The translations under genes and the position numbers were made by a program. A model generated the notes under the pieces. It made no database searches. It was given only the letters and a program-made list of their open reading frames with translations, and was not told the origin of the DNA. From Bilabrum cf. latius (taxonomy: Eukaryota), in contig OZ237737.1 of assembly GCA_965178125.1 (NCBI GenBank), positions 1,674,001-1,730,237 of the forward strand: a stretch of 56,237 nt of DNA. The letters run 5' to 3'. Below, piece after piece: positions 3,881 through 56,237 of the stretch. Numbering within the stretch: position 1 is the first letter of the stretch; each line of letters begins with the position of its first letter.

Positions 3881-5356
<1,476 letters not shown>

Positions 5357-6431: not shown

Positions 6432-6504
6432 TGCTGCCACCCGGAATCGAACCGGGGACCGCTCGCTTACTAAACGAGTGATACTTCCGCTGAGCTATGG
6501 CAGC
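6432..6504 (-). tRNA. tRNA-Thr(AGT), D-arm-degenerate copy (possible pseudogene)
   Basis: Cloverleaf with acceptor stem GCTGCCA/TGGCAGC, anticodon arm CTCGT-TTAGTAA-GCGAG and T arm CCCGG-TTCGATT-CCGGG. Three D-region substitutions versus the third copy break the C11-G24 pair. An oligo-T terminator follows. Confidence 0.75.
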
Positions 6505-8856: not shown

Positions 8857-8929
8857 TGCTGCCACCCGGAATCGAACCGGGGACCGCTCGCTTACTAAAC
8901 GAGTGATACTTCCGCTGAGCTATGGCAGC
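8857..8929 (-). tRNA. tRNA-Thr(AGT), D-arm-degenerate copy
   Basis: Identical to 6432-6504. Confidence 0.75.
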
Positions 8930-10862
8930 TCTTAGCGATCTGAGCCCATCATCCAGGTCACAGACGAAGAGTCCCTGATGAGGGAGGCTCGCGCCGGAGT
9001 GGCTCGGCTGGGCATCGCCGTAGGTGAAGTCGGACGCCAAGCCGCCGCCGGGTCTGACACTGTGTCTGGCACTGGGTCTGCCGCACGCCAGAGCGCTGCC
9101 TTGGGGAGAGTAGGGTCCTCCGCTGCTGCAGCTCACCCTCCAGCAGCCCCCCGACCTGCCTCCGGGAGACGACCATTCGCCACCAACTCGTCGACCTCGC
9201 CGGGGAGGGCCCAGCTGCACGATTGCCACGATTACCGCCAGCGGGAACGTGTCGGCGCCCAAGTCGAGGGGCAGGGGCAAGGGGGGCAATGGCAAGGGGG
9301 CCAAGATCTCGCTGGTCGAGGCCTGCGGGATCTTCGCCCCCTACCCCACCCCCCCGGCCGCCGGCCGCGTCGCGAGCCATCATGCAGAAGTCCCTGGCGA
9401 CCGTGCTGTCCGTGGTGCCGCCCCCGAGCAGCAGAGGCTGGACATGAACGCGGAGCAGGAAGGGCACGGGGAAGCCGCGGGCAGCAGCGGCGTGGGAGTC
9501 GGGCCGGACGGGGCCAAGCGCGGCCCCATGGTGCTCGAGTTCCGCGTGCGCACCGGCCGCCGGAGCCCGCACGGCGGTGGCGGCGGCATGAGGATGATGA
9601 TGCCTCCCCCCCCCCTCGGGTGGCGCTGTTCCGGCGAGGCTCCCGTTTGGAGGGCGGGCGGCGGGGAGCGGCGCTCCGTCCCAGCGGGACCCTTCGGCGG
9701 ACTACCCCTACTGCATGCGGTGCGCGGTGCTCGTGAACGGCGGCGGCTGGGACGTCGTGCGCGTGGAGCGGCTAGTCAGCCTGGGGAAGCCTGAGAGGCA
9801 CGGGCACCGGCCGATGGTGGATGGCAGGGGCCGGGTATGGGAGGGAGGGGGGAGGGGGTCCCGCGTCACCGGGCAGTGGACGATATGTTGCATCAAGGTT
9901 TTCGTGTTGTGAGGCACAAGCAGACTAGCGGTTCAGTGCATGTTTCTCGGAAGCATTCTGTGCACAGATCTGAGGTGGGACCGCGAGGGCGCAACACGAG
10001 CAGCAGTGTCCAGAGTTCTGCAGAGAGATGCTTGGTCTTGATGCACACGCAGAATGCTACTAGCCGTCGCATAGGTCCCTGCACGCTGCGCACGGGACGT
10101 TGCAATGGGGCCAAAAAAGTGCCCCAACTCGAACGCAGCCAGGCCCGGTGGTGCGCGGCAGCTTGCGCGCCGACGGATGGGTTCCATCTGGCAGGTAGAA
10201 TTCACACTGGCGCATTTGAGTCCGCCGATATATCACGCAGAGTGCTACGCGGCACGCTTGGCCGCCATCCGTGTCGGCACAGGCGACCAACCAGGATGCC
10301 ACCAGCGAGTGCCGCAGCTGGCCTGCAGCACTCGCCCCGCAAGCTATGCTTCCAGGCGTCCTTGACCTAGGGGAAATCATCTTCTCCGCAAGAAGCGTAC
10401 ATGCTTTATATACGTACCTGTGTTCAATCCAATGCTTTGAAGGCAAGCAGGAACCGGCAGTAAAAAAGTCCGAGAGCTGCCAGTGATTGTCAGCGGTTGG
10501 TCGAACAGGCAGATGGGCCAAATCACCGGACAATACACAATACTGAAACGAACAACAAACTACTACTGCTGCAGCGGATTGAGCCCCGTTTGTAAGCGAG
10601 CGGTCCCCCCGGTTCGATGCGGCAGGCAGTTGCAGTTGCCGCAGTGCACACGTCGGATCCGATCCGGATCCTAACCGCACACCCGCACCGACCGCTGGCA
10701 GGCGAATAGACTGGCGGAAAGTGCCTGCCTTGGTGATAGATGGGCCCCATTTGACGCGATATCGTGCAACTACAGGCGCAGACTTTCGAAATAGAGGCCT
10801 CGGCGCTTGCCCATGAACACGAAAAAAAGAAGTGCAACTAGGAAAAATAAAATAAAATCAAG

Positions 10863-10935
10863 TGCTGCCACCCGGAATCGAACCGGGGACCGCTCGCTTA
10901 CTAAACGAGCGCTACTACCGCTGAGCTATGGCAGC
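10863..10935 (-). tRNA. tRNA-Thr(AGT), best-preserved copy
   Basis: 73-nt cloverleaf with D stem GCT/AGC, anticodon AGT, discriminator A and a T-rich Pol III terminator downstream. Confidence 0.9.
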
Positions 10936-18085: not shown

Positions 18086-21000
18086 TCAGAACCCACCACC
18101 AAACCCGCTACCCCCGAAACCCCCGCCGCCCCCCCTACCACTGCCGCTGCCAAACCCTCGTCCGCCGAGGCCAAGCCCCTGAGGCTTCTTGCCGAAACCC
18201 TACCCGCCCGCCCCGCTGCCGAAACCCCGGCCCCCGTTCTAGAATGCACCACCGAATCCACCAGATGAAGCTGTACCAGACCCAAACGTAGATCCTCCAG
18301 CAAGACCCGGCTGCTATCTGCCAGACGACGCCCCCGCTCCCTGCCCCACGGCTCCGCTGCCGCCCTGCTGCCACGACGGCACGCTCCCAGACGACGCCCC
18401 CGCTCCCTGCCCCACGGCGCCGCTGCCGCCCTGCTGCCACGACGGCACGCTCCCAGACGACGCCCCCGCTCCCTGCCCCACGGCGCCGCTGCCGCCCTGC
18501 TGCCACGACGGCACGCTCCCAGACGACGCCCCCGCACCCTGCCCCACGGCGCCGCTGCCGCCCTGCTGCCACGACGGCACGCTCCCAGACGACGCCCCCG
18601 CCCCCTGCCCCACGGCGCCGCTGCCGCCCTGCTGCCACGACGGCACGCTCCCAGACGACGCCCCCGCTCCCTGCCCCACGGCGCCGCTGCCGCCCTGCTG
18701 CCACGACGGCACGCTCCCAGACGACGCCCCCGCTCCCTGCCCCACGGCGCCGCTGCCGCCCTGCTGCCACGACGGCACGCTCCCAGACGACGCCCCCGCC
18801 CCCTGCCCCACGGCGCCGCTGCCGCCCTGCTGCCACGACGGCACGCTCCCAGACGACGCCCCCGCTCCCTGCCCCACGGCGCCGCTGCCGCCCTGCTGCC
18901 ACGACGGCACGCTCCCAGACGACGCCCCCGCCCCCTGCCCCACGGCGCCGCTGCCGCCCTGCTGCCACGACGGCACGCTCCCAGACGACGCCCCCGCCCC
19001 CTGCCCCACGGCGCCGCTGCCGCCCTGCTGCCACGACGGCACACTCCCAGACGACGCCCCCGCTCCCTGCCCCACGGCGCCGCTGCCGCCCTGCTGCCAC
19101 GACGGCACGCTCCCAGACGACGCCCCCGCACCCTGCCCCACGGCGCCGCTGCCGCCCTGCTGCCACGACGGCACGCTCCCAGACGACGCCCCCGCACCCT
19201 GCCCCACGGCGCCGCTGCCGCCCTGCTGCCACGACGGCACGCTCCCAGACGACGCCCCCGCTCCCTGCCCCACGGCGCCGCTGCCGCCCTGCTGCCACGA
19301 CGGCACGCTCCCAGACGACGCCCCCGCACCCTGCCCCACGGCGCCGCTGCCGCCCTGCTGCCACGACGGCACGCTCCCAGACGACGCCCCCGCACCCTGC
19401 CCCACGGCGCCGCTGCCGCCCTGCTGCCACGACGGCAAACTCCCAGACGACGCCCCCGCACCCTGCCCCACGGCACCGCTGGGGCCCTATCCAGGGTGTT
19501 TAGGTGGAAGATTCCCTCGAGCTCCACCAGTTTGTGGAGACTGGGCCCCCCCCAAAGAGTCAATGCCTGCAGACAGCCAGTCTGGCAGTGCGCCCGGCGC
19601 CTTGATTCCTGCGGATCCTGCAACAGCACCAGCGCCGGTGCTAATCGGGCCAGTTGGGGCTGGAGCCGGCAATTGACGAGCTCCACTGCTCTACTTCTGC
19701 TGGACTTCGGCACTATGCTGATTGCCGAAGAGTCCGCTGGATGCTCCAAACAACCCGCTCGAGGGCTAGGGCTGTGCTCTCCCCGTTGCCGCCCCTCCCT
19801 GGCGAGTCGGCTGCTGGATCTGTCCCGCTGCCTGCAGGCCTGGTTGGTGCTGGGCCATCGAGGACGATTGGCCGGCTTGCACGCCCAGGCCCAGACCGGG
19901 CTAGGAGCCCTGCTCCCGAGCCGGTGCCTGCGTGCCTGCAGCAGCCGAGCTGTCTCTGGGCTGCGGCTCCGCCGGGGTCTCCTCCCCACGCAGCCAGGCC
20001 GGGACCTACGATGGTGCGGGAGCTGGGGCCTGCGCTCCTGAGGCCGATGGATGTGCCTCGGGGGCGGGAGCCGGAGCATCTTTCTGAGATGCTTCTGCTT
20101 CTGTCTTCTTGGGCTGCACGTCGAACATGCTGCTCTTGGATGCCTTGCTGCCCAGCCCGAGCCCTAGCCCGAGACCCATACCCTTGGGCCGAGCGAACGC
20201 ACCGGAGGCAGGCGCCGTAACAGGGGCGGGAGCGGGTGCGGGTGCGGGTTCCTCAGCGGCACTAGCCGGGTCATCTGCCTGCTGCTAGGCCAATTTGCCG
20301 CCAGTGGCCTCATGCGATGAGCTTGAGGAATCCTGAGCAAGACTCTGCTGCTGACCTTTCGGCTATCTCGGCGTGTCTTCTTCTTCCACCTCGAAGTCTT
20401 CGTCGTCATAGCCGTCCGCTGTTTCCTCGGCCCTGGCAGGGGTGCGCAGAGGCGAATCCCCGTGCTCTCGCGCCGTACCACCGTCTGTGCCCTGACGCTA
20501 GGAGCCCCCCTTCTGCCTCTCTGGTGACGCGCCATCTGCGACGGAACTGGCACCAGGGGACGGGTGCGCCGCTGGGGCCACCAACTGCGAGCTGTCGACT
20601 GCCGCTGGTTTCTAGCTGCCCCTAGCACTGGCCCAGGTCTCATCCAGGCCGCGCTTGGGGGCCAACTGCGAGGGGGAGCCGCCTGCCAGAGCCGCTGCAT
20701 CCTGATCCGCTTGGCTCTCCTCGGGCTCGCCGGGAGCAGTCGCTTTCGAGGAAATTGCATCTGATTGCAACCCCTTTCCCTTCTCCTTCCCTTTCCCTTT
20801 CCCTGTCTCCTAACCAGTCCCTTCGTCCTGCCCCTAGCCCAGCTTGTGCCTCAGCGCCTCGAGCTCTCTGGCCTGCTGGCCCAGCTTCTCCTCCTTCTCC
20901 TCCATGCTTCTGCGCTGCGACTCGAGCTCCCTCCTCACTTCCTGCAAGTCCCTCATGGCACCTCGCAGCAGCCTCTCCTTCTCGCGCCGCGCCTCACGTT

Positions 21001-23710
21001 CCCGCGCCTCGCCCCCGACGCTCCGGCCCGCGTCAGTTCCCCCCACCCCGCCGCCCCCTGCCTGCATGGCGGCCTGCACCCGCCTGCTCTCCTGCTCGGC
21101 CCTGTGCTCTGCCTCTGCGCGGGCCTCGTCTGTCTTGACCACCAGCCTCTGCGCCCGCGCTGCCTTCTGCTCCAGCGCTGCCACCTTCTCGAGCAGCCCC
21201 GCCCGCTCCTGCTGCCACTTGCGCTCCCGCACCGCTCTCGCGCGGTCCTGGCCCGCCTTGCTCTTGCTGGAGCTGCGACTGCCCCTCGATAGCCTGCCCC
21301 CTGCTACCGTGGATCCGCCCCCCAAGATCTCGCCAGCGGCTCCGCGGAGCCTACTGGACGATCGCACGCCGGTCTTGCCGCGCCTACCGCCCAGCGGACT
21401 GCCACGCGCCGCGTGATCCCCAGCGCCGCCGGTTCTCAGTTTCTGCTTGAGCGACCTGTTCCTGTGCTCCAGTTTGACCACCTGCTCGTGCAGCCGCTCC
21501 GAGGAGATTTGGTGCCGGGCAGCCTCGTCTTTGGCCAGCCGCAGCTTGTCTCGCAGCAGTCGCACGTCAGCCTCGAGCGACTTGCACTTTTTCTCAAGGG
21601 TCCGCTGGGCCTGCTCCTCTGCCTCGGGGCGGCGCTAGAGCATCCTCTGCACGTGGAGCAGCTCCCTGTTCTGCTCCTCCAGCTGCTCGATCCGCGCCCC
21701 CCTGGCCCTGAGCTTGCTCTCCATGTCTCCCAGGTTCTCGTCCAGCAGCATCGCGCGGGTCTTCTGCCGGACCGCCTGCAGCTTGCCCCGCAGCAGCTCC
21801 ACCTTGCCCTTGAGAGCGCGGCCCGCCTTGTCTCTCGCCTGCAGCATGGCCACCAGCCTCCTCTTTTCATCGGCCCAGCCGCGCCGCTCCTTCTCCAGCC
21901 GAGACCGCAGCTCGACGGCCTGCTGCTCGTCTCCTCCTGTTGACCGACCCACGCTCCCCGACCTGCCCTCCAGCACCGGCCGGAGCCCGCCAGCGGCTCG
22001 CGAGTGCCCTTTCGGCGGCCGTCGCTTGCTGTTGGACGCAGAGCGACCTACGCTGCGCATCCGCCTGCCGCCGGGCCCTTCCTTGGCCTTGCCCCTCGTC
22101 CTGCTCACGCTGCGCTTGGTGCCCGTCCTGCCACGCCTGCCGCCCCGCCCCGCAACTCCGCCATGTACCGAGTCTGCAGCAGGCCTCAGCTTTGCCGCTC
22201 TAGCTCTTGGCCCTCGCTTGCGGCCCGGAGAGGGCAGGTGCGGCTGGCGCATCCCCTTCCGCGGGGGGTCCTCGACCTCGATATCGCTGGGGGCCAGGGC
22301 CTCCTCGGGCGCGGGCGCGGGCGGGGACGGAGCCGAGGATGGGGCCGGGGCCTGCTGCAGGGACTTGTCCAGCGCCCGGCTGAATTGCTGCAGCTACTTG
22401 CGCAAGACGTCGTTTGCATGCTTCAGTTTCTCCACCTCCTCATCTCCCCCCACGGACTGTGCCCCCGAGGCCGAGGCACTGCCTGCTGCTGGACCGCCCC
22501 CCGTCGCCCGCTTGGCACCCTGCATCGGGGAGTGCGTCGGTCGGTCGCTGCCCTTCCTCCCCACAGTAGAGCCGCCCCTGGACCCAGATCCTGCTCCCAC
22601 CTGGGGCGTGTGCCCATCGCTACCTCCGGCACCAGGGAGCGCAGGCACAGCCACCGCCACCGATGGCGGCATGGAGCCTGCAGTGAGTAGCGGAGAAGGG
22701 GGCTCCGTGGGCTCGGATGCACCGGCCTGCTTGCCGCCCCGCTGCTATCTGCGCGAGCCGCGGTGCGCACCATCCCCCGTGCCGCTGTGCCCCGAGGCCC
22801 CCCCGCTCGCACGGGGGACAGTCACGGGGCTGCTGCGCACCTCCCCTCCCCTGCCGGGGGAAACCTGCCTACCATCGTCCAACTGCCCCCAAGCTCCCTC
22901 CTCGTCTGATAGAGGGTAGGTATCCCCCGCCCGCCCCACCGACGGGGCACCGGCATCGGACACACTGCTGGTGCCGCCGTGACCAGTCGACCTGGCTGCA
23001 AGTCCGGCGGCCGCTCGGCGTCTCTCCAGCTCAGCCGCCTTCTGGGCAGTGTCATGCCTGCGTCGAGCAGCCGCAGCATCCTATTCTTCTTGAGCCCTCC
23101 TTTGCTCCTCCAGCGCAGACCTAAGCTGGCTGGCGTCACCGTCGTCCGCCTCCCCATCATCTCCGCGCCGGACATGCACCCTCCCGTGCCTTCTGGTGAA
23201 GTGCTCGCCCTGCCTTTCGCTCTCTAACTATGCTGTCGATGCGTCTGCTCCATCTCGCGCGGATTGGTTCCCGCCCGCTCCCTCCGGCGCATCGCCACGA
23301 GCCTTGCCGCCGCCGGTGCCCGCGGGTTCTATCGCTCCGGCATGACTGCCACTGCTTGCGGCCGAGGCACTATCACCATCAACATCATTATCGTCGTCCT
23401 CGTCGTCAAAATCTTCTGAAGAGTATTCCGATTCAACATCGCTGTCGGAACCGGAATCGCTCAACTGGTTGCCAGCGTTTGGTGCAGATTGGAAACCGTT
23501 CTTGCTTTTTCGCTTGTCGTGGCCTGTAAGAGGAGACGTTTCTATCGTGCGTGGGTCTTCTGCCTGTAGTGAAGGACGAGACGCAGGGCCACCAGAGACG
23601 GCTGCGCCAGCGTCAGCGCCGCCCTTCGACTAGTCTTTCGTTTCTCCTTCGCCATCCAGAGAATCATCCGACAAGTCGCCGCCAAATGCATCATCCATCC
23701 AATCGTCCAT
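18086..23710 (-). CDS. Large (~1874 aa) intronless coiled-coil protein (weakly lebercilin-like) with a 22-aa Trp-containing repeat and FG/RG-rich tail
   Basis: One frame from ATG 23710 (MDDWMDDAFGG) to TGA 18086-18088 with about 20 TAG and no TAA/TGA. It joins track ORFs 23228-23464, 22745-22963, 22394-22672, 21635-22252, 20834-21565, 19487-19672 and 18314-19471. Confidence 0.8.
18321..19476 (-). repeat. 66-bp coding minisatellite, ~17.5 copies (GQGAGASSGSVPSWQQGGSGAV)
   Basis: Period of exactly 66 bp (ccagacgacg at 18321, 18387 ... 19443). Internal variants GGA/GGT/GGG and AGC/AGT are synonymous in this frame. Confidence 0.97.
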
Positions 23711-23903: not shown

Positions 23904-25760
23904 TCATTGCGATCCGCTTGCAACAGTCCGGACGAGTTTCAGCACGGCAGCGCGCACGACGGCAGCAGCCTTGCTTGTCTGCTCAACAGCTGCCCCGGCT
24001 TGCGGAGCCCCCGGGGAGCCGCCGGGCGCTTGCTGCAGAATGGTGCGGGCCTTCTTCATGTCTCTCTCCAGCTCTAAAGCCGCATCCTCGGGTACCTTGC
24101 CCCCGCTACCCCCCACGCCTCGGCCTCGCTTGGACCCCAGTGTCGCTGTGTCGCCGCCCCCACTCCCGCTGCTCGCGCCCCCCTCCATAGCCACAGAGGC
24201 AGGCGCGGGATCCCCCGAGCCCGCCCCCGAGGAAGGGGAAGAGGCCTGCTGCAGCAGCAGCTCGCGGCCCCTCTTGGCCAGCCCCTCCAGCTCAGCAGCC
24301 CTGCGCCGGGCCGCCGCGACGACTTCGTCTGGGAAGCAGGCCATGCGCGCCACGTGGATGCCGAAGGAGGACGGGCACGAGCCGGGCCTCACCTGGTACA
24401 GGAACGTGAGCTGCCCGGGCAGCCGATCACCAGCACCGCCTGCACGGTTTTTTGCCCCACTCCCCTCCTCATCCTCATCCTCGTCCTCGTCCTCCTCTTC
24501 TTGCGCCGCGACATGCCTGTTCACCACACCGGGGCACTCGTCCTCCAGCGCCGCCAGCTCGTGGAAGTGGGTCGCGAACAGAGTGCAGCACCGCACCTCC
24601 TTGGCCAGGTGCTCGGCGATCGCCCACCCCAGCCCGAACCCGTCGTACGTGCTCGTGCCCCTGCCGAGCTCGTCCACGATCACGAGCGACCGAGGGGTCG
24701 CAGCCTCGAGGATGGCGGCTGCCTCAAGCATCTCGGCCATGAACGTCGACACGCCGCGCACCTGGGCGTCACCAGCCCCCAGTCGACAGAGCACACGGTC
24801 GAAGACAGGCAGCTCGGCCTCCTCTGCAGGCACCCAGGCCCCCACCTGGGCCATCACTGCCATGGCCCCCAGCTGTCTGATGTACGTGCTCTTGCCGCCC
24901 ATGTTGGGCCCTGTGATCACCTCCAGCCACCCCTGCTGGCTTGCAGGGGTGCTAGCTGCAGACGAAATCGCTGCTGTATCCTTGCCGGCACTTCTCTCGA
25001 CCGTTTCCCCGCCAGGGCCTGGCAGTCGCATGTGGTGGTCGTTCGGGATGAAGTCCACGCCGTCCTGCCACTCCACCACCGGGTGTCGAGCCTGCTTCAG
25101 CCACACCCGGCGGCCCCCCTCCACCAACTTGGGCCGGCAGACCGAGCCACGAGCGGAGCGGGCCATGTGGGCGAGGGAACGCAGGGCATCGAGCTCAGCC
25201 ACAGCCTCCGCAGCGGCCTCCAGCACTGGGGCATACGAGCGGGCCACGTCCACCACAGCCGACACCACCCCGCGCTGGGCCTCGTCGTACTCCTCCTCCG
25301 CGTCCAGCAGCTCCCGCGCGAGGCTCTGCAGTCCTCCCGAGCCCCCCGTGGTGAAGTGCACCCCGTCCTTGAGCACGCCCAGCACGCGGACCCTCGGCTG
25401 CGCGCGGACGGCCTTATCGTGCCGACGGGCAGCGCGCAAGACAAACCCATGCTGCTTGTCGGCGTGCAGCTTCACGTCCAACGCGGCGCCCCAGGAGCCA
25501 CGGACGTCTTCGAACAGCTCGTCCACCGCCCCCCTGGCCCGCTCCAGCCGCTCTGCCAGCTCGGCCAGCTCGGGCTTGTACGAGGCCGACACCCGCGGCT
25601 CAGGGGCGGCCGGGTCCTCCACGACGAGATCTACCATCTTCTCCAGCGGCTGCAGCTGCTCTGCCGCCCACTGGATGCGGCCGCTGATCCGCTCCAGCAG
25701 CGGCGTGCTGGCCGCTCGACTGGCGTCCTGCTCTGCACCGGAAGCACCAGCGGCGGATGC

Positions 25761-25796
<36 letters not shown>

Positions 25797-26947
25797 CGAG
25801 GACGAGGACGACGCCCCGGAGGCAGCAGCCGCTGACCCATCACCGGCAGCTTTTACAGAGGCAGCGAGCGTAGGCATCTGGCCCGCAGCGTGGTACAGCT
25901 TGCATACGTCCAGCAGCCCAGCGGCCTTCCTCTGCACCCGCCGGTTGAGCGAGTCCAGGTCAGCGGTGGCCAGCTGCGCGCCGAGGTCATCGAAGCTGCC
26001 TGCGTCCTGCTGGAGCGATTCGACCGCGTCCTGCCGCAGATTGATGGCCCTTGGATCCACCAGCGGCTGCAGGACCCACCTGCGCATCAGCTTGCGGCCA
26101 GCCGCCGAGGCGCACCCGTGGCCCAGAATGCCAGCCAGGGAGGAGAGCGGCCCGCCCCCTGAGGGGCCCTGGGGGGGCAGCAGGTTTAGAGCGACGACAG
26201 CCGCCCTATCCAGCTGCATGTGCAGCCCCAGCTTGCCTTCTTCTAGCGCGAACCGGGGGCCGTCGCCGTGGGCGGCGTGGGCCAGCCCTTTGGAGGCGGT
26301 GTCCTCCGAGCCTGCTTCAGGGAGCTCGTCGTCGTCGTCGTGTCCATCCAGCTCGTACGTGCCTATCAGTGAAGCCAGCGAGTCCTTTGCTAGCGCATCG
26401 CGCAGCACCACCTCTACCTGCGGCAGCGCCTCGGCACCGCACAGCTCCTTCAGCTTGGACTCTACGTCGACCTTCTTTGCAAGCTTTGATTGGAAGCTTC
26501 GGACGGAAGCACCGCTGCCTTCGATAATTTCACTCATTTTTTTCATGTCAACTGCGCCACGAAGGGCTCGAAGTATGATTGCGGAGAAACGGAGAGGTCG
26601 CCCATAGCTTGATGCAAACGCTCGAGGTGATCGATACGACACTTTCTCTTACCTTTGGTGAGGCTACGTGGCTAAATGACTACTTCTGTGGGCTATGTTT
26701 TTGTCATAACGGCTTCGATTGAAGCGAAATGGTCTCCATCCAGAAAAGAATACACGACGATCTTGGAGTGCTTCGAGTCCTCAAGACTTTGCCGCGCCCG
26801 TCTTGAGACAACAGCCACTGCGACGCGCCTGGAGCCGCCATCTCGGGATGTTGATATGGCACAAAACGTACTCGACCCTGATTCCATTGTACTGCACGGC
26901 TGGACGCACTTGTTTGGTCCACCGAATTTGAAATCTGCCGAATCCAT
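23904..26947 (-). CDS. MSH2: DNA mismatch repair protein MSH2, apparently lacking N-terminal domain I; intron 26652-26552
   Basis: FLDGDHFASIEA, HMQLDRAAVVALNL, GRKLMRRWVLQPL, RQDAVE, ARHPVVE, FIPNDH, ITGPNMGGKSTYIRQ, GDAQVRGVSTFMAEMLE, DELGRGTSTYDGFGL, FATHFHEL, SFGIHVA. A GTAAG...GCAG intron restores the frame. Two TAG in exon 1 (26693, 26672). Ends TGA. Confidence 0.9.
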
Positions 26948-46399: not shown

Positions 46400-48736
46400 T
46401 CACTCCTCGACCGGTCCTCTCTTCCTGGCCACCCTCTGCCGAATGCCGCCCTCGGTAGATCTAGTCGGGGGCGCCGCAACATCAGCACCCGCCCCCGATG
46501 CCGGTGATGCCGTTTCGCGATCCACCGCCCCTCCTCCGCCCCTGCGCCCTCCCATGGCTACCCCCACTATGCCCATCACGTCAAGGATCGCATCCCCCGC
46601 GTCCGTCGATCCCGCCGACAGCCCGATGCCCCGCAGCAGCACGGCAGGGTCAACTCCAGTCACGGCCGCCACCAGTCGGGTAAGGGAGGCGCGAAATTGC
46701 CACGCCACAGCCATCAGACTCAAAATCAGGAGAGTGCGAGCAATCGCGCCCATGAAATTGCCTGCCGTGTCGCACACCGACAGGAAGGGCGAGCATGTCA
46801 CGTCCAGCAGCAGCTCCGCAATCAGCAGCGCGATTGCCAAGACCACCGTGCCTCCAAGGAGAAATAGCTTCGGGTAGGGGTTCATGTCGGAGTTGATCTT
46901 GCGGTGACTCTCCAGGGCGCCTCCCAGCGCGCCGTCGAGCCTCTGCCGATACCTCTCGATGAGCTCCTCGGACCCGAACTCGGCGCCGTCATTGAAGGCC
47001 TTCATGGCGCTCTCAAGCGCCTCTTGGTGCTGAACCAGCAGCGTAGCGTCCTTCATCTTGCCGTAGCCTCCAAGCCTTTCGATGCTCTGCTGCATCTTGT
47101 CATCATAGCTGAACCGAGCTGCGGCGTAGGCCGACCGGCAGGCCACATCTGCAGTTGCCTCCAGGACCGTGTTTGGCTGAGGGAAAGCATCTGCATCTCG
47201 AAACAGATTCACGTATGCCCTCAGGTAAAGCCGGAGGGCATGTGAGGTCACCGTGTTCCCGGCCAGCACCTTGCCTTGCAGCTGCTTGCGGACGGTCCTC
47301 TCCACGAAGGCACGCATATAGTCCACGAACTCGTCCCCGCAGGCATCCACCTTCCCGTTGAACCCGCGGCCTGTGCGTACGGCCTTCTCAGGGGGTGGCA
47401 GTTCGAACATGGTGACTGTCTGGAAGCAGCGCTAGATTTGTTCCCTGGTGCCCCGGATGTCCTAGATCCCGTCCTTACCCTTGCCAAGCGCAGCCTCGTC
47501 CTCGTCGTCCTCCTCCCCGCCCCCCGCACCACCCTCCTTCATGATCTGGTTCATCACGCGGTCGCACTCCGCAGCATAGGCGTCCTCCTGCCCCTGCTCT
47601 AGAGGACCCCTCCTCTCCGCCTTGGCCGAGTCGCGCACCAGCACGGTGACGTGCTGAAAGGGGGCCTTGGAGTCCTCCGGCTCGGGGGCGGCCGCCTCTG
47701 CTACCGAGGAGGAGGGGGAGTCCGAGCTTGCGGCACTGGCGTGGTGCTTCTGCTGCCGCTTGGACACGACCCTCGCATACTCCGTGAACATGCTCAACGT
47801 CCTGAGCACGTCTTCGCTGACGTTGCCCTTGATGTTGTACACCATGCTGCTGCTCAGCAACGTGCCCAGTCCAAACACGCTCCGGGTCACGTGCTCACTT
47901 GTCTTGCGGTCAAACATCCCCTGCGTGTCCAGCACGAGGACAGCAGTGCGGGCGCGCTTGCCGTCTCCCTTGCCGCTGGGCAGCGTGAGGTAGAACGGCT
48001 TGGACCACGCCCAGATGCCAACCGTCATGCGGCGGTCACCACCTCCCCATAAGAAACCATCCGCCTCCTCGTGATCTGGTGCTGCACCGCTGCTTGCAGC
48101 CGGCTTGTTGTAGTCGTCTCTGTCTGATTCATCTCGCTCCAAGTTCATGGTCAGGCTGTCCTCGAGCGTCAGCCAATCCTCCAATGGAGGTTGGCGCGTA
48201 CCGTCCCCTGCAAAGAGCGTGTAGGAATCATAAGAATAAATTAGCTTATGTGCAGGTCCACCGTAGATCGTGCTTCTAGGGTTACGTTGGCAACTCACGG
48301 CCTTCATCATGGTGCTGCATGTACTTCAGCATAAACGATAGCAAGAAGCTCTTTCCCGTTCGAAATGATCCTAAGACAGAGAGAACTGATACCGGCATAT
48401 TTGCAGGAATCTGCGACGTAAATGGTGGGACGGCCATCGAGCACGCAAGCATTGATCGTGCAGTTGCAGAAAGGGTGCAAGAATGCGCCGGTACTCACCT
48501 AGTCAATCAACTGATCCAAGTTGTTACCAACGAGTTCAAAGTGTTTTCCACCCTCCAGTACATTCACAATCTGCAAAACAAACGCTGTATTGATGGGCGC
48601 ACAAATCATTATGGGATAGCACGATTCCTATGGGTGCGCGAAAGTCAAGGCAACATACTTGTACCGGCCTGGGGCGCTGGTTCGGGCGAGTATCATTATC
48701 ATTGATACCGGATGTCACGCGTTCTTTGGCAGACAT
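46400..48736 (-). CDS. ATL: Atlastin/GBP-family ER-fusion GTPase, 4 exons
   Basis: RPVQ|IV..FEL; P-loop VLGSFRTGKSFLL; RMTVGIWAWSKPF; VLDTQGMFD; LLSSSMVYNI; FQHVTVLVRD; two C-terminal TM helices. TAG at 48499 (last codon of exon 2), 47462 and 47432. Ends TGA. Confidence 0.88.
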
Positions 48737-48972
48737 ATCACCAGAAATGCTTCCTAGACTGGTCAATGCGCTGTAAAGACGTGCTTGGCGCTGGCTAGGT
48801 TCGCTGTGTCCAGCGAACTTTCCTTTTAGCCACAGACGACTTCAATTGTTCGATCCCACATTATTCGAGCTTGAGACCCGTACTCGCTCACATTTTTCGC
48901 ATTACTCTATCGTTTGTATCATACAAGGGGATTTTTTATCCCTATTGACAATTATACCCAGGAAGCAACCAA

Positions 48973-50415
48973 ATGGGCGACAGTTGGGGAGATTGGGGTT
49001 CTAGCGCTGGGGTTCCACCGCCAGCACCCACTGGTAGTGACTCGAAAAAGGATTATTGGGGAGCCGGTGCTCCAGCAACCTCTGGTGATTCTGGTTGGGG
49101 GACTAGTGGCAACTCCTCTGGCTCCGGAAGCGGGTGGGGGAGCAGCTGGGACGCGCCAGCCCCTGCGAGCGGATCAGGTGCGAACAGCAGCAATGGCACA
49201 GCATCAACGAACGCGTAGGGCGCTGCAGGAGCATCTGCCTGGAGCCGCCATCCCCGAATTCCGCGTGCTTATGGAGGTTTTGATTGGTGGGAGGAGCTTG
49301 ACAAGGCTCCCTAGCAGTCTGGCGGCGGGAGCGGTTGGGACAGCGGTGGGGGCAGTGGATGGGGCACGTCTGGTTCAAGCGGCTGGGGATCTTCAGGTGG
49401 AAGCGGTTGGGACTCAGGGGGCAGCGGCTGGGGCTCATCGACTAACTCGAAGGGGAAGCAGTCAGCAGACCAGGCGGCCCAGCTTGCCACAGGCGGTCAG
49501 ATCCTGTTCCAATCCACGCTGCCTGTGCACCTGCAGCAGGTATACAAAGAGCTCCGAGACTAGTACTCCAACACCCCTGGCAAGAGCAAACTCATGCACG
49601 TGGTGGCATACGTAGGCACTGCCCGGGACGTGGTCTACTTGCCGCCCAGGTTCCCCGACTCGATCTACAGGGCCCAGCAGAGGGAGGGCAGCCGCCCAAA
49701 GAGCATCCACACGGCCCGCCCATTCGATATGATCGACAGGAAGAAACATGATGCGCTAGCTAGGAGCTTCCGGGCTGGGGGTGCAGCCGGTGATGCAGAC
49801 GCCGGCCGGTTGGTTCCTACCGTGGCGGTTGGGCTGCACGGGCTGCAGGGCAAGGCCGCGCAGATGAAGGCAGACTACGCCTCTCTGCAGGAGAACGCCA
49901 TCAACCTGGCAGTGGACCTCAGGAACGGGCTGCGAGACACGGCGGAGCACTTGAGGCAGGCGGAGAGCCTCCAGCTGCAGCAGTCCAGGCTCAACCGGCG
50001 GCTCGTGAGTGCAGTCACCGCGCTGGATGACGTGCTGCTGGCCAGGCAGGGCGCCGAGGCGCAGCAGATGACAGACGGGGAGCGGCAACTTGCGGATGCC
50101 GTCCGCTAGCTGGAGGACCAGCTGAGCAGGAGGCCCAGGTACGAGGGGCGGCTGGAGGGGCTGCACGACCTGTACCGACGGAGCGCGGCCTCGTTCGCGG
50201 CTGGCATGTCGGCACAGGTGGAGGAGGCGGCGGCTATGCACGACCGGTTCCTGCCAGAGGTCGCTCGGCACCTGGCCCGGCACTCGTCCAAGATCCAGGA
50301 CCTCGAGTCCGAGCTGGAGCAGGCGGAGAGACACGTGCACCTGATGGAGACCAGTCTGAGGCTGTGGCAGGGCGGGGCAAGGGGGGTGGACAGAGGCAAG
50401 GGGCGGCTGGGGTAA
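48973..50415 (+). CDS. NUP54: Nup54/Nup57-like nucleoporin with a WG-repeat N-terminus (480 aa, intronless)
   Basis: One frame with 4 TAG (49216, 49312, 49561, 50107) ending TAA. The C-terminal region LVPTVAVGLHGL...LNRRLVSAV...GERQLADAVR*LEDQL...YEGRLEGL...EVARHLARHSSKIQDL follows the Nup54 helical-domain pattern as recalled. Confidence 0.62.
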
Positions 50416-50542
50416 ACCTCCTGGGGTATCTACGATGAGCTTGGAGCCGGATGGCAACATTGAGTAACACCACAATTCCCAGGCTAGAATTACGCAAATC
50501 AAGACTTGTATCGCATGCTCCGAGGAGCATCGGAGTCGCACT

Positions 50543-52852
50543 TCACTCGTCCTCGTCCTCGTCCTCGCCCTCTCCCTCGGCTCCGACATCTCCACCTGCA
50601 GCCCGCGCCGCCGCAGCTTCGCGGCGGGCCTCTCGCTTTGCCTCCTCGGCCTACTCTCGCGCCTTGCGGGCAGCCACCGCGTCGCACTGCTTCAGAGCTG
50701 CCTTGCACCACCCGAGCAGAGCCTGACCCAGAGGGGACAGTCCACCAGGGGAAGCCCCCTCGCCGCCCTCCTCCTCCTCCCCGCCCGCTTCGGCATCTTC
50801 GCCCTCCTCCCCGTCCCCGGCTGCCCCTCCAACCGCAGGGGCAGGCGCCATGGAGCCCAGTGCCTCCCTCGCCAGGTCTGCCCTAGGCCCCTCTTCACGG
50901 CCGGCCACCGCTGCCAGCTCCTCCTGGAGCCCATCCGACCGCATCAGCTCGCGCACCGTCCCCCAGCGCACCTTGGCTGCATCTCTGGCGAGCGGATCGC
51001 CCAGGTCCTCCTTGCTGCTGCCCTTGCACAGGTGCAGCACCGCCGCCATCACCTGGCACTCAAGGGGAGCGGGCGACAGCGCCCTGGAACACACGTGCTT
51101 GCGCAGGGCATCCATGGGACCCAGGCCTAAAGACTTGGCAGCAGCTCCGATCGAGTGCCTAGCCCGAATAAGGGCTTCCACATCCGCAGGCAGCTCACCG
51201 CTGGGCAGCTCCTCCTCCTCCTCCTCCCCTGCAGCCCCCCCTTCCTCCGCCGCGCCGTCTCCACCCTCTCCCTCTCCCTCTCCCTCGGCAGCCTCCGCCG
51301 CAGCCTCTCTGGCAGCCTCCCTCGCCTCTGCTCTCGCGGCTGCCTCGTCAGCCGCCTTGGCCGCAGCATCCTCGGCCTCCTTTGCGGCCGCTTCCACCTC
51401 GGCAGCGGCTGCCTCCTCCGCGCCTGCGTCAAACCCGGCTGCCTCCTCGGACTGGAGCGCCTCCAGTGCGGCCGCTTCCAGGGCAGGCTGCGCCTTGTGC
51501 CGCTGGAACTCGGCCTCGTACTCGGCCCGCTCGCTGCGCTCGTAGGCCTTGGCCACCTCCTCGGCCCAGCCCTTCGCAGCTGCCTCTGCCTCGGGCCCCA
51601 GCCTGACATCGCGACCCAGAGTGTCCACGCACACGGCCAGCAAGACCTCCTTCTGTACTGGATCCGGAATCACCTCCTCGGCGGGCTGTGCATCTGCCGC
51701 TCCCTCCCCTTCCCCGTCCCCCTCCTTCCCCTCACCCTCCCCACCGCTGCCCTCTCCGTCCTCGCCCTCATTGGCATCCTCGCCGTCCTCGTCTTCCCCG
51801 TCCTCACCATCCCCTTCGCCGTCACCCTCGCCCTCTTCCTTCGGTTTCTCCTCCGGAATGCAGCTAGCATGCAGCGATGACATGTACCGCGCAGGCACAG
51901 CCAGGTACTGGCCCAGCTTAGGCACTGCAGGGCCCTGTGAGGGGAGGTACACCATGCGGGACTCGCGGAGAGTGTTGCTTACTCGGACCACAGGTAGCTC
52001 AGGAGGGGGTGGGGGCGGCTTATTGGGAGCTTCCCCTTCGCCATCCTCGTCCTCTTCTTCCTCCTCTTCCTCTTCTTCTCCATCGGCCCCTGCTGCCTTC
52101 ACTGGCTTCCATGCGTCGAAGGTGACGCCCTCGTTGCTCAGCGGGTGCTAGCCCAGCATGTGCTCGCTGCCCTCAGATGCTGCCAAGTACGTAATTTGCG
52201 AATCAACGGGGCCTCCAGCGCCTTCATCGTCCTCTGCTTCCTCGTCCTCCCCACCGACTCCAGCCGGAGGTGCCCCGTCCAGGGGATCCTTGCGAGCAAT
52301 AAAAACACCAGCTGCCCGGACATCCTACATCAATACATTTGCAACCTCACGAAGCTGCGCTGCGGTTATAGTCTGTGCTTCGGCCAGGTCAGAGCGGAGC
52401 TGATCTCTCCGTCGCTGCGCAGCTTCGTTTGCCTCACGCTCCTCCTTCGTAGCCTCAAGGTCTGCTTGCTGCTTGGTATCTGCTTCAGCTTGCTCCTTCT
52501 CCAGTTGTTCTGACATAGACGCATCCTGTGGGGGAAGAAATTATGATGAATGATGAGGGGAAGACATTCGAGTATTGATTGCAATTGGTGGGTTGATCCA
52601 CTCGTGTGCTTCTACCATAAATAGAAGAACGACGAACAAATCTGGACTATCACGTAATTAATCGATAGTATTATTGGACTACAACGCGATGATACTTGGG
52701 CTCACAGCAGCAGCGGATTCCATCCGCTCGGCTTGCTTCAACAGAAACGCGCCAAGGTATTCAATGGGATCTCGCGGTCGAGCTGCAACAACAGCGGCCA
52801 AGCCATCCGTAAGAACATCACCAACAGCTTCCTAGACATACGCAGCGTCCAT
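50543..52852 (-). CDS. Dpy-30-motif radial spoke protein 2-like; intron 52705-52526
   Basis: Dpy-30 motif MDAAYV*EAVGDVLTDGLAAVVAARPRDPIEYLGAFLL; ITYLAAS, GVTF, VSNTLRESRMVY, PKLGQYLAVP, CVDTLG. Four TAG. Ends TGA 50543-50545. Confidence 0.7.
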
Positions 52853-54244: not shown

Positions 54245-54266
54245 TTAGGGTTTTAGGTTAGGGTTA

Positions 54267-54297
<31 letters not shown>

Positions 54298-54834
54298 GGT
54301 TAGGGTTAGGGTTAAGGTTAGGGTTAGGGTTAGGGTTAGGGTTAGGGTTAGGGTTAGGGTTAGGGTTAGGGTTAGGGTTAGGGTTAGGGTTAGGGTTAGG
54401 GTTAGGGTTAGGGTTAGGGTTAGGGTTAGGGTTAGGGTTAGGGTTAGGGTTAGGGTTAGGGTTAGGGTTAGGGTTAGGGTTAGGGTTAGGGTTAGGGTTA
54501 GGGTTAGGGTTAGGGTTAGGGTTAGGGTTAGGGTTAGGGTTAGGGTTAGGGTTAGGGTTAGGGTTAGGGTTAGGGTTAGGGTTAGGGTTAGGGTTAGGGT
54601 TAGGGTTAGGGTTAGGGTTAGGGTTAGGGTTAGGGTTAGGGTTAGGGTTAGGGTTAGGGTTAGGGTTAGGGTTAGGGTTAGGGTTAGGGTTAGGGTTAGG
54701 GTTAGGGTTAGGGTTAGGGTTAGGGTTAGGGTTAGGGTTAGGGTTAGGGTTAGGGTTAGGGTTAGGGTTAGGGTTAGGGTTAGGGTTAGGGTTAGGGTTA
54801 GGGTTAGGGTTAGGGTTAGGGTTAGGGTTAGGGT
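54245..54834 (+). repeat. Proximal (TTAGGG)n telomeric array (~590 bp)
   Basis: Degenerate first units, then perfect TTAGGG. Confidence 0.98.
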
Positions 54835-54894: not shown

Positions 54895-55739
54895 GAATTT
54901 TCGCGGATTGAGATCTCGGCAACTACAGGACATATGAAGACCGTTCAAACTGCATTGGGACGGCCTTGGGGCACAACATGGGCCAAATGTTCCCCAGGTT
55001 CCGTTTATGTCGCGCGGCGCCGATATGAGCCGATGAAGGATTTCATGCTGAATTTTCGCGGATTGAGATCTCGGCAACTACAGGACATATGAAGACCGTT
55101 CAAACTGCATTGGGACGGCCTTGGGGCACAACATGGGCCAAATGTTCCCCAGGTTCCGTTTATGTCGCGCGGCGCCGATATGAGCCGATGAAGGATTTCA
55201 TGCTGAATTTTCGCGGATTGAGATCTCGGCAACTACAGGACATATGAAGACCGTTCAAACTGCATTGGGACGGCCTTGGGGCACAACATGGGCCAAATGT
55301 TCCCCAGGTTCCGTTTATGTCGCGCGGCGCTGATACGAGCCGATGAAGGATTTCATGCTGAATTTTCGCGGATTGAGATCTCGGCAACTACAGGACATAT
55401 GAAGACCGTTCAAACTGCATTGGGACGGCCTTGGGGCACAACATGGGCCAAATGTTCCCCAGGTTCCGTTTATGTCGCGCGGCGCCGATATGAGCCGATG
55501 AAGGATTTCATGCTGAATTTTCGCGGATTGAGATCTCGGCAACTACAGGACATATGAAGACCGTTCAAACTGCATTGGGACGGCCTTGGGGCACAACATG
55601 GGCCAAATGTTCCCCAGGTTCCGTTTATGTCGCGCGGCGCCGATACGTGCCGATGAAGGATTTCATGCTGAATTTTCGCGGATTGAGATCTCGGCAACTA
55701 CAGGACATATGAAGACCGTTCAAACTGCATTGGGACGGC
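54895..55739. repeat. 155-bp tandem satellite, ~5.4 copies, embedded between telomere arrays
   Basis: gaattttcgcggattgagatctcgg... starts at 54895, 55050, 55205, 55360, 55515 and 55670; units nearly identical. Confidence 0.97.
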
Positions 55740-55740
55740 T

Positions 55741-56237
55741 TTAGGGTTAGGGTTAGGGTTAGGGGGTTTGGGTTAGGGTTAGGGTTAGGGTTAGGGTTAG
55801 GGTTAGGGTTAGGGTTAGGGTTAGGGTTAGGGTTAGGGTTAGGGTTAGGGTTAGGGTTAGGGTTAGGGTTAGGGTTAGGGTTAGGGTTAGGGTTAGGGTT
55901 AGGGTTAGGGTTAGGGTTAGGGTTAGGGTTAGGGTTAGGGTTAGGGTTAGGGTTAGGGTTAGGGTTAGGGTTAGGGTTAGGGTTAGGGTTAGGGTTAGGG
56001 TTAGGGTTAGGGTTAGGGTTAGGGTTAGGGTTAGGGTTAGGGTTAGGGTTAGGGTTAGGGTTAGGGTTAGGGTTAGGGTTAGGGTTAGGGTTAGGGTTAG
56101 GGTTAGGGTTAGGGTTAGGGTTAGGGTTAGGGTTAGGGTTAGGGTTAGGGTTAGGGTTAGGGTTAGGAGTTAGGTTAGGGTTAGGTTTGGGCTTAGGGTT
56201 AGGGATTTGGGTTAGGGTATAGGTTAGGGTTAGTATG
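55741..56237 (+). repeat. Terminal (TTAGGG)n telomere
   Basis: TTAGGG repeats to the end of the window, degenerate in the last ~80 bp. Confidence 0.98.

What the first reader, a model, noticed from the sequence alone, without database searches (positions are those of the whole stretch)
48973..49440. Nup54-like nucleoporin whose FG repeats appear to be replaced by WG repeats
Seen: the ~155-aa Gly/Ser-rich N-terminus has 8 WG dipeptides and several WD (SGWGTS, SGWGSS, SGWDSG) and no FG. The C-terminal region resembles the Nup54/Nup57 helical domain. Known: Nup54/Nup57 normally carry FG/GLFG repeats that form the pore barrier, while GW/WG repeats are Argonaute-binding hooks. Inference: either a Trp-based permeability barrier, or a central-channel nucleoporin that tethers Argonaute. 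The full protein is only visible when TAG is read through.
Basis: partly seen in the sequence, partly recalled or inferred. Interest (0 to 1): 0.72.

Follow-up and report, generated by a model that had tools for sequence, protein, structure and literature searches.

The report
Nup54-like pore protein with Trp-Gly repeats
A protist that reads the stop codon TAG as an amino acid encodes a divergent relative of the nuclear-pore channel protein Nup54 whose floppy front end carries conserved tryptophan-glycine motifs where all known relatives carry phenylalanine-glycine motifs, so either the pore barrier tolerates another aromatic residue or this pore protein has gained a different binding partner.

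Summary
ORF 48973-50415(+) is open for 480 codons only if four in-frame TAGs are read as sense; it ends at TAA. Residues 1-165 are Gly/Ser-rich and predicted disordered, with 14 Trp, 8 WG, 3 WD and no FG. The C-terminal half matches Pfam Nup54 (PF13874) at the family cut-off: 31.1 bits here and 30.5, 34.0 and 37.8 in three relatives. The best solved-structure match of the family profile is NUP54 (E 4.4e-4). A 62%-identical orthologue from a metagenome contig, also read through TAG, keeps all 10 of its N-terminal Trp aligned to Trp here, while other columns are 50% identical; it has one FG beside a WG. A 29%-identical homologue also starts with WG motifs and has no FG. So Trp-Gly repeats in the FG position are old and selected in this lineage. 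I read this as a divergent Nup54/Nup57 orthologue with WG acting as the FG equivalent (about 0.5). An Argonaute or other Trp-binding hook, or a non-pore paralogue, remains open. No genome is held, so Nup62, Nup58, Nup98, a second Nup54 and Argonaute could not be checked. I rate it a new variant of a known kind, with moderately high interest.

The parts
48869..48972 (+). probable 5' untranslated leader
   Evidence: Contigs of runs X6, X7 and X8 identical to the window begin at 48869, 48871 and 48875. There is no ATG in 48869-48972, and an in-frame TGA lies at 48946.
48973..50415 (+). 480-codon ORF for a Nup54-family protein, TAG read as sense, TAA stop at 50413-50415
   Evidence: Translation. 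There are no joints or indels in the laid contigs. Orthologues P0008, P0002 and P0007 appear.
48973..49467 (+). disordered Gly/Ser-rich N-terminal domain (residues 1-165) with 14 Trp, 8 WG, 3 WD and no FG
   Evidence: Counts. pLDDT is 26-43 with no secondary structure up to residue 161. Against the L001 orthologue, pN is 0.34 and pS 0.85 over 131 aligned codons.
48973..49152 (+). first WG block (residues 1-60; Trp at 5, 8, 29, 42, 55, 59)
   Evidence: Five of these six Trp align with Trp in P0008; W55 faces a non-Trp residue.
49249..49302 (+). conserved island inside the disordered domain (residues 93-110, core YGGFDWW)
   Evidence: Nearly identical in P0008 and recognisable as YGGFAW in the 29%-identical P0007.
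49321..49443 (+). second WG block (residues 117-157; Trp at 122, 130, 138, 146, 153, spaced 8, 8, 8, 7), partly a lineage-specific tandem expansion
   Evidence: Tandem Repeats Finder finds periods 12 and 21, 2.8 copies each. There is a 24-column gap in P0008 opposite residues 117-140. Spacing.
49216..49218 (+). in-frame TAG, codon 82
49312..49314 (+). in-frame TAG, codon 114
49561..49563 (+). in-frame TAG, codon 197, flanked by residues conserved in all relatives (R195, Y198, S199, N200)
50107..50109 (+). in-frame TAG, codon 379, inside the Pfam Nup54 match
49468..49797 (+). middle region (residues 166-275) conserved among close relatives; fold not predicted with confidence
   Evidence: Alignment; pLDDT below 50 over 194-255.
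49798..50163 (+). match to Pfam PF13874 Nup54 (residues 276-397, profile positions 19-136 of 140)
   Evidence: E 2.7e-7, 31.1 bits against a cut-off of 30.5; 30.2 bits with TAG read as X.
49801..50379 (+). two long predicted helices (residues 277-385 and 387-469), coiled-coil type
   Evidence: AlphaFold2 DSSP; block pLDDT runs from 57 to 84 over this span, mostly 65-84.

Best explanation
The ORF is a real gene of a GC-rich, intron-poor eukaryote that reads TAG as a sense codon (probably Gln) and ends genes with TGA or TAA. It encodes a divergent member of the Nup54/Nup57 family. In other eukaryotes this is the channel nucleoporin that forms a coiled-coil trimer with Nup62 and Nup58 and projects an FG-repeat domain into the pore; that description rests on established knowledge, not on a test here.

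This protein has the same layout: a disordered repeat domain followed by a helical Nup54 domain. The aromatic residue of the repeats, however, is Trp (SGWG, GWD) instead of Phe. I infer that the Trp-Gly motifs are the working equivalents of FG motifs. They would be aromatic 'stickers' on flexible Gly/Ser spacers that contribute cohesion and transport-receptor contacts in the central channel, with receptors presumably co-adapted.

Shown: gene structure, TAG read-through, Nup54-domain similarity, disorder, Trp enrichment, and conservation of Trp in relatives. Inferred: pore location, assembly with Nup62 and Nup58, and the FG-like role of WG.
For: Gene and code:
- I tallied 15 of the 36 ORFs of at least 340 aa, picking those that look like proteins. 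All 15 end in TGA (11) or TAA (4), and together they hold 78 in-frame TAG.
- Contigs of three runs from two studies are identical to the window over 48869-50377, with no joints and the TAGs in place.
- A relative about 91-94% identical (X9) has indels only outside the ORF, at 48827 and at 50436-50483.

Family:
- PF13874 is the top Pfam hit and the only one near significance. Scores are 31.1 bits (window), 34.0 (P0002), 37.8 (P0007) and 30.5 (P0008), against a cut-off of 30.5. All cover profile positions about 18-138 of 140.
- The family profile's best PDB hit is NUP54, chain 9sob_H, at E 4.4e-4. The next hit has E 0.14.
- For P0007, 10 of the 10 best Atlas feature hits are Nup54 clusters.

Layout: residues 1-161 have no predicted structure, and long helices span 277-469.

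WG as a selected FG equivalent:
- FG and WG counts in the N-termini are 0 and 8 (window), 1 and 6 (P0008), and 0 and 4 (P0007).
- All 10 Trp of P0008's N-terminus align with Trp here, against 60 of 120 other columns identical. Fisher P is 0.0015.
- In the N-terminus pN is 0.34 and pS 0.85.
- P0008 has GGFGGWG where the window has SGDSGWG, so F and W sit in one array.
- Engineered FG-like phases with Tyr, or with no aromatic residue, still form selective barriers (PMC9918544, passages read).
Against: - Pfam scores sit at the cut-off: 30.2 bits, just below it, if TAG is read as X.
- A profile search of 1.84 billion representatives found only this small family and no canonical Nup54 at E <= 0.001. 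Homology to Nup54 therefore rests on Pfam, one PDB hit and the Atlas features.
- The monomer model is poor (mean pLDDT 50.6).
- The N-terminus holds 12 Asp/Glu in 165 residues, three of them directly after Trp. PMC9918544 states that Nup98 FG domains select against negative charge and against Trp. [quoted passage not shown]
- Gly/Ser/Asp-flanked WG/GW is the published signature of Argonaute-binding platforms (PMC2910046 abstract).
- Pore location, partners and the absence of a second, FG-bearing Nup54 are untested, because no genome is held.
- Whether runs X6-X8 are RNA is the tool's guess, not on record.
Confidence: 0.5

Rival explanations
1. The protein is a Nup54 orthologue at the pore, but the WG/GW array is a hook for another partner, most plausibly Argonaute. 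It would be a reiterated WG/GW platform as in GW182, NRPE1 and SPT5L, tethering small-RNA machinery at the central channel instead of, or besides, forming barrier repeats.
For: - The composition is G 25%, S 22% and W 8.5%, with D next to Trp and the Trp flanked by G, S, D or T.
- Trp spacing in the second block is 7-8, and 13-21 in the first.
- Strict conservation of Trp amid 50% identity of the spacers fits any Trp-pocket ligand.
- The window lineage has expanded the WG block by tandem duplication.
Against: - The array sits exactly where family members carry FG repeats, and one FG sits inside it in P0008.
- The distant homologue P0007 has only 4 WG, flanked by G, K and T with no acidic residues nearby, which looks more like a short FG-type stretch.
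- No Argonaute of this organism is known to me, and none could be sought.
- My searches found no paper linking a nucleoporin to an Ago hook. 'Ago hook' plus nucleoporin gave 1 paper, a Tetrahymena DNA-elimination review seen as a listing only. 'WG repeats' plus nuclear pore gave 8 papers, of which 7 were listed; I saw only titles and abstract starts, plus the matching passages of two, and none of those names a WG nucleoporin.
Confidence: 0.17
2. The protein is not the pore's Nup54. It would be a lineage-specific coiled-coil protein, or a paralogue with a Nup54-like helical domain, that has another role, while a canonical FG-bearing Nup54 exists elsewhere in the genome.
For: - Pfam scores are only 30-38 bits around a 30.5-bit cut-off.
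- Coiled coils attract weak matches: Lamin, Nsp1/NUP62 and laminin hits at E 0.1-1.
- Only 5 proteins in 1.84 billion representatives match the family profile, none of them a canonical Nup54.
- The Xenopus Nup54 chain 5c3l_A scores only E 2.2.
Against: - Four of four members, spanning 29-73% identity, hit the same Pfam family over nearly its full length as the only near-significant family.
- NUP54 is the best PDB match, by a factor of about 300 in E-value.
- Ten of the ten best Atlas neighbours of P0007 are Nup54 clusters.
- The domain order matches Nup54/Nup57.
Confidence: 0.15
3. The WG-rich stretch is drifting low-complexity sequence. It would be GC-rich GGN/TGG/AGC microsatellite-like DNA with no specific role for Trp.
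For: Part of the second block is a recent tandem expansion with periods 12 and 21. The window is GC-rich (0.52-0.74) and full of simple repeats.
Against: - Ten of 10 Trp are conserved at 62% overall identity, while spacers are 50% identical.
- WG recurs in a 29%-identical homologue.
- pN is well below the saturated pS.
- There are no indels in this region in the 91-94% relative, whereas both flanking intergenic regions carry indels.
- Trp has one codon and is about 9-fold enriched.
Confidence: 0.08

Closest known systems
Nup54 (vertebrates, plants) / Nup57 (fungi), Pfam PF13874, subunit of the Nup62-Nup58-Nup54 channel trimer
   Same: The Nup54 helical-domain match covers nearly the whole profile. 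NUP54 is the best solved-structure relative. The layout is a disordered repeat domain followed by long coiled-coil helices.
   Different: The aromatic residue of the repeats is Trp, not Phe: 0 FG and 8 WG. The spacers carry Asp. The sequence is so divergent that scores lie at the family cut-off. The gene needs TAG read as sense.
Tetrahymena micronuclear Nup98 paralogues with NIFN instead of GLFG repeats (PMC5450191, listing and abstract start seen; PMC8421043, passage read)
   Same: This is a natural precedent for a nucleoporin whose repeat motif departs from the canonical FG type in one lineage.
   Different: NIFN keeps Phe and concerns Nup98 paralogues of one of two nuclei. Here Phe itself is exchanged for Trp, in a Nup54-type protein.
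Reiterated WG/GW Argonaute-binding platforms (GW182/TNRC6, NRPE1, SPT5L; PMC2910046 abstract)
   Same: Both are disordered Gly/Ser-rich arrays in which only Trp next to Gly is conserved.
   Different: Those platforms are attached to silencing or transcription factors, not to a nucleoporin domain. Binding to Argonaute is untested here, and the organism's Argonaute is unknown.
Engineered FG-like phases (GLYG, GLLG//L variants of Nup98 repeats; PMC9918544, passages read)
   Same: They show that a selective phase does not strictly need Phe, which makes a Trp-based repeat physically plausible.
   Different: They are synthetic and Trp was not among the variants in the passages I read. Native receptors were largely shut out of the Tyr variant, so a natural Trp version would need co-adapted receptors.

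Membership tests
Nup54/Nup57 (PF13874) | Nup54 helical domain scoring at or above Pfam's gathering cut-off (30.5 bits) | tested here: met
   Scores are 31.1 bits (TAG=Q) and 30.2 bits with TAG=X. Relatives score 34.0, 37.8 and 30.5. This is marginal but consistent in 4 of 4 members over profile positions about 18-138 of 140.
Nup54/Nup57 (PF13874) | Closest solved structure is a Nup54/Nup57 chain | tested here: met
   The profile of 4 members hits 9sob_H NUP54 at E 4.4e-4, with the next hit at E 0.14; 5c3l_A Nup54 reaches only E 2.2. Foldseek with the low-confidence model gave nothing at E <= 0.001.
Nup54/Nup57 (PF13874) | Layout: N-terminal disordered repeat domain, then coiled-coil segments | tested here: met
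   There is no secondary structure up to residue 161 and pLDDT about 30 there; helices span 277-385 and 387-469.
Nup54/Nup57 (PF13874) | Phe-Gly (FG/GLFG) repeats in the N-terminal domain | tested here: not met
   There are 0 FG and 8 WG in residues 1-165. The orthologue P0008 has 1 FG and 6 WG; P0007 has 0 FG and 4 WG.
Nup54/Nup57 (PF13874) | Forms a 1:1:1 coiled-coil trimer with Nup62 and Nup58 and sits in the pore channel | not testable with these tools
   No genome or proteome of the organism is held, so no partners could be folded with it.
Nup54/Nup57 (PF13874) | Is the organism's orthologue (no separate canonical FG-bearing copy) | not testable with these tools
   There is no genome. Database searches found only this small family.
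WG/GW Argonaute-binding platform (Ago hook) | Reiterated WG/GW in a disordered stretch with a Gly/Ser/Asp-type composition | tested here: met
   There are 8 WG, 7 GW and 3 WD, with G 42, S 37 and D 10 of 165 residues; the stretch is predicted disordered.
WG/GW Argonaute-binding platform (Ago hook) | Binds the Trp pockets of an Argonaute PIWI domain; an Argonaute is present in the organism | not testable with these tools
   There is no genome and no Argonaute in the window's long ORFs that I scanned.
Cohesive FG domain (Nup98-type rules in PMC9918544) | Near absence of negative charge and of Trp in the repeat domain | tested here: not met
   There are 12 Asp/Glu and 14 Trp in 165 residues. The rule is quoted; it was stated for Nup98, not for Nup54.

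The most novel reading that the evidence does not exclude
The central-channel nucleoporin of this lineage has had its FG repeats turned into an Argonaute-type WG/GW hook. Small-RNA effector complexes would then dock inside the nuclear pore itself, giving a built-in link between RNA silencing and nuclear transport. The related bold reading is that the whole pore barrier of this lineage is Trp-based. I rate that lower, about 0.07, because one FG survives in the orthologue's array and GLFG/GFG motifs occur in another protein of the window.
Probability: 0.15. Interest if true: 0.88.

Novelty: new variant of a known kind. Interest (0 to 1): 0.62.

Why it matters
FG repeats are treated as the universal currency of nuclear-pore selectivity. 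The reviews and papers I could search report natural exceptions that still keep Phe (NIFN in Tetrahymena).

A channel nucleoporin that has kept Trp-Gly motifs across relatives as far apart as 29% identity would be a natural experiment. It asks whether the barrier and its transport receptors depend on Phe itself or only on an aromatic sticker on a flexible spacer. It also asks how receptors co-evolve with the repeats.

If instead the array is an Argonaute hook, it would place RNA silencing physically in the pore channel. Either outcome can be tested with one recombinant 165-residue fragment.

The host organism is also a eukaryote with a UAG-only code change, which is rare.

Tried and rejected
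- **Own genome:** none is held.
- **Structure route:** the AlphaFold2 model from a 7-row alignment had mean pLDDT 50.6 and pTM 0.21. Foldseek against the PDB gave 18 matches, none at E <= 0.001, and all were long-helix proteins. This is uninformative and not evidence either way.
- **Single-sequence phmmer against the PDB:** only weak coiled-coil hits, with NUP54 at E 6.
- **N-terminus in short database proteins:** the search with residues 1-200, lengths 'shorter', scored none of 7,858 candidates at E <= 0.01. The WG domain of P0002's species stays unseen.
- **The search for related loci with the 7-row alignment:** turned down for lack of a conserved stretch. The 3-row alignment worked.
- **RNA evidence:** no RNA holder is listed on record. 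Runs X6-X8 are 'RNA?' guesses. I read them as transcript-like because contig ends fall between genes in three runs and depth differs 2-5 fold between neighbouring genes, but this is not proof of expression.
- **Meaning of TAG:** at 12 TAG positions in the window/L001 pair the other sequence has A four times, Q, H and S twice each, and K and I once each. In the atlastin homologue TAG faces E and H of human atlastin-1. There is no suppressor tRNA in the window; the only tRNAs are three tRNA-Thr. Gln is likely from contexts such as GxGFG and QxQ but is not shown.
- **Organism:** not identified. Atlas taxa for the MutS-like ORF said only 'Eukaryota'.
- **Earlier scan notes:** none on this genome or on look-alike sequence.
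- **Literature:** I found no paper describing a nucleoporin with WG in place of FG. The searches were 0 papers; 8 papers; 1 paper; 32 papers, 12 listed. I saw listings, plus passages of PMC9918544, PMC3774778, PMC4622936, PMC2910046 and PMC8421043. Supplements were not consulted.

Full report
**1. What is in the sequence**

The window is GC-rich (0.52-0.74 in 2-kb steps). Under the standard code the + frame starting at 48973 is cut into pieces of 81, 171 and 69 aa. With TAG read as a residue it is one ORF of 480 codons, 48973-50415. It has TAG at codons 82, 114, 197 and 379 and a TAA stop.

This is not special pleading for one gene. One search listed 36 ORFs of at least 340 aa, and I tallied the 15 that look like proteins rather than antisense low-complexity frames.
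- All 15 end in TGA (11) or TAA (4).
- None has an internal TAA or TGA.
- Together they carry 78 in-frame TAG, and 13 of the 15 have at least one.

TAG is therefore a sense codon in this organism. Contexts such as GxGFG, QxQ and AFxNGG suggest Gln. Comparative positions are mixed, though: A four times, Q, H and S twice each, K and I once each, and E and H against human atlastin-1. No suppressor tRNA lies in the window. I therefore call Gln likely, not shown.

**2. The observation**

Residues 1-165 contain G 42, S 37, A 18, W 14, D 10 and P 10. There are 8 WG, 7 GW, 3 WD and no FG, and the rest of the protein has a single Trp. Trp is 8.5% here against 0.9% in the other 14 tallied ORFs, with binomial P of 3e-10. 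Given that composition, 8 or more WG turn up in 847 of 100,000 shuffles.

**3. Is it a real, translated gene with this N-terminus?**

Contigs of three coded runs from two studies (X6, X7, X8) match the window without a single difference or joint. They cover 48869-50368, 48871-50372, and 48875-49254, 49278-49428 and 49512-50377. There are thus no introns, and the TAGs stand in those molecules.

The tool only guesses that these runs are RNA. Two things look like transcripts: contigs break between genes in all three runs, and depth differs 2-5 fold between neighbouring genes. Expression is nevertheless not proven.

ATG 48973 is the first ATG after 48869 and follows an in-frame TGA at 48946.

A relative about 91-94% identical (X9) has indels at 48827 and at nine places in 50436-50483, and none inside the ORF. 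All 40 substitutions that the tool printed lie in the 5' flank, 48731-48941; the other 99 were not shown.

One loose end remains. The three transcript-like contigs stop at 50368-50377, about 40 nt before the TAA. Thin read cover at mRNA ends is the simplest reason, but I could not test it.

**4. What family**

Pfam gives one meaningful hit: PF13874 Nup54, residues 276-397, profile positions 19-136 of 140, E 2.7e-7, 31.1 bits against a cut-off of 30.5. With TAG read as X the score is 30.2 bits.

Relatives are few.
- The word-indexed search of 5.8 billion proteins found one, P0002 (306 aa, 72% identical over residues 194-466).
- A full HMMER pass over 1.84 billion representatives found five: four fragments of close relatives and P0007 (410 aa, E 2e-7).
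- A metagenome scan found one locus, L001. Its ORF 2992-4293 has 433 codons, 8 in-frame TAG, and is 62% identical over the full length (P0008). A homologue of the window's downstream gene lies next to it.

Each relative independently hits PF13874 over the same profile span: 34.0, 37.8 and 30.5 bits.

A profile of the four full sequences finds NUP54 (9sob_H) as the best solved structure at E 4.4e-4, with the next hit at E 0.14. Xenopus Nup54 5c3l_A reaches only E 2.2. For P0007, 10 of the 10 best Atlas feature neighbours are Nup54 clusters.

The AlphaFold2 model is poor overall (mean pLDDT 50.6). It does show the expected layout: no structure up to residue 161, and long helices at 277-385 and 387-469 with block pLDDT of 57-84, mostly 65-84. 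Foldseek on that model was uninformative.

I conclude with about 0.85 confidence that this is a divergent Nup54/Nup57-family protein. The scores are marginal one by one but consistent.

**5. Are the WG motifs selected?**

Yes. In the N-terminal alignment with P0008, all 10 of its Trp face Trp in the window, while 60 of 120 other aligned columns are identical. Fisher P is 0.0015; alignment scoring itself favours W-W pairs.

Synonymous sites are saturated (pS 0.85) while pN is 0.34 in the N-terminus and 0.25 in the C-terminal part. Third codon positions carry 89 of 183 differences. The disordered domain is thus coding and constrained.

P0007 is only 29% identical. It also begins with WG motifs (4 WG, 7 Trp, 0 FG in 148 residues) and shares a small island, YGGF-x-W, with the other two.

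P0008 has one FG directly beside a WG (GGFGGWG) where the window has SGDSGWG. F and W therefore occupy the same repeat array.

The window's second block (residues 117-157, Trp every 7-8 residues) is partly a tandem expansion that L001 lacks.

**6. How it most likely works**

The position, density and flanks of the motifs, and the F/W mixture in the orthologue, point to WG being the local form of the FG motif. On this reading the motifs are aromatic stickers on Gly/Ser spacers projecting from the channel trimer. This is inference.

Physical plausibility comes from engineered repeats. Phases with YG, or with no aromatic residue, still excluded inert protein and admitted an engineered receptor-like GFP variant. 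[quoted passage not shown] It also states that Nup98 FG domains select against Trp and negative charge (PMC9918544, passages read).

The window's domain has 12 acidic residues in 165, three of them right after Trp. That composition is the published signature of WG/GW Argonaute platforms (PMC2910046, abstract). A hook for Argonaute or another Trp-pocket protein is therefore a serious rival (0.17).

Two further rivals:
- A non-pore paralogue (0.15). It cannot be excluded without the genome.
- Neutral low complexity (0.08). It is contradicted by the Trp conservation.

**7. Comparison with what is known, and novelty**

Nup54/Nup57 is the closest family. One defining feature, FG repeats, was tested and not met, so I file this as a variant and not as an ordinary member.

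The nearest natural precedent for a changed repeat motif that I could find is the NIFN repeats of Tetrahymena micronuclear Nup98, and these still contain Phe (PMC8421043 passage; PMC5450191 listing).

My searches found no paper on a WG-for-FG nucleoporin or on an Ago hook on a nucleoporin. These were seen as listings and the passages named above, with no supplements.

**8. Verdict**

The mechanism is open between an FG-equivalent role (about 0.5) and a hook (about 0.17). I rate it a new variant of a known kind, interest 0.62.

The decisive step is a TAG-aware survey of the organism's full set of nucleoporins and Argonautes. After that come localisation and binding tests on the 165-residue fragment.

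Noticed in passing
whole window; L001 521-5304: This is a eukaryotic nuclear genome in which TAG is a sense codon while TGA and TAA end genes. The 15 long ORFs I tallied hold 78 in-frame TAG, with stops TGA 11 times and TAA 4 times. The metagenome relative L001 does the same: 8 TAG in the Nup54 orthologue, and 8 and 5 in its neighbours. The encoded residue is probably Gln but this is not shown. The organism is unidentified, and I found no paper on a GC-rich eukaryote with a UAG-only change (listing only).
   Followed up: partly
54256-54834, 54895-55746, 55741-56233: The window ends in a telomere-type array: (TTAGGG) with 81.7 copies up to base 56233. Before it lie 5.5 copies of a 155-bp repeat and an inner block of 96.5 hexamer copies. 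The Nup54-like gene therefore lies about 6 kb from a chromosome end.
   Followed up: no
18086-23710 (-): A 1874-codon ORF with 20 in-frame TAG and no Pfam family. It has an acidic N-terminus and a coiled-coil-like middle. Then come 17.7 copies of a 66-nt (22-aa) repeat, each holding one Trp (PSWQQGG), and a tail with two SGLFG and many GFG/RGG motifs. Canonical FG-type motifs thus do occur in this organism; whether this protein is a nucleoporin is unknown.
   Followed up: partly
50368-50415: Transcript-like contigs of three runs stop at 50368, 50372 and 50377, about 40 nt before the TAA that closes the ORF. The convergent downstream gene's contigs begin at 50460 and 50501. Thin cover at mRNA ends is likely but unexplained.
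   Followed up: no
49249-49302: A short conserved island (core YGGFDWW, followed by acidic residues) lies inside the otherwise disordered N-terminus. It is almost identical in L001 and recognisable in the 29%-identical P0007. It may be a separate docking motif with an unknown partner.
   Followed up: partly
6431-6504, 8856-8929, 10862-10935 (-): Three tRNA-Thr(AGU) genes are spaced about 2.0-2.4 kb apart, inside repeated units whose long ORFs recur almost word for word.
   Followed up: no
4428-4586: A perfect (CAG) array of 53 copies.
   Followed up: no
46400-48310 (-), 23904-26546 (-), 651-3776 (+): The neighbouring genes are an atlastin-type GTPase (human atlastin-1 E 1.2e-41), a MutS homologue nearest to MSH4/MSH5 clusters and a KRI1 homologue. 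These are ordinary eukaryotic housekeeping and meiosis genes.
   Followed up: partly
window 48800-50600: The locus is held at 78-100% of sampled words by runs filed under four different coded organism labels (A-D) in four studies. Small shares occur in runs labelled algae and protist metagenome. The organism may be a frequent associate or contaminant of other cultures. I did not lay those small-share runs and did not pursue this.
   Followed up: no
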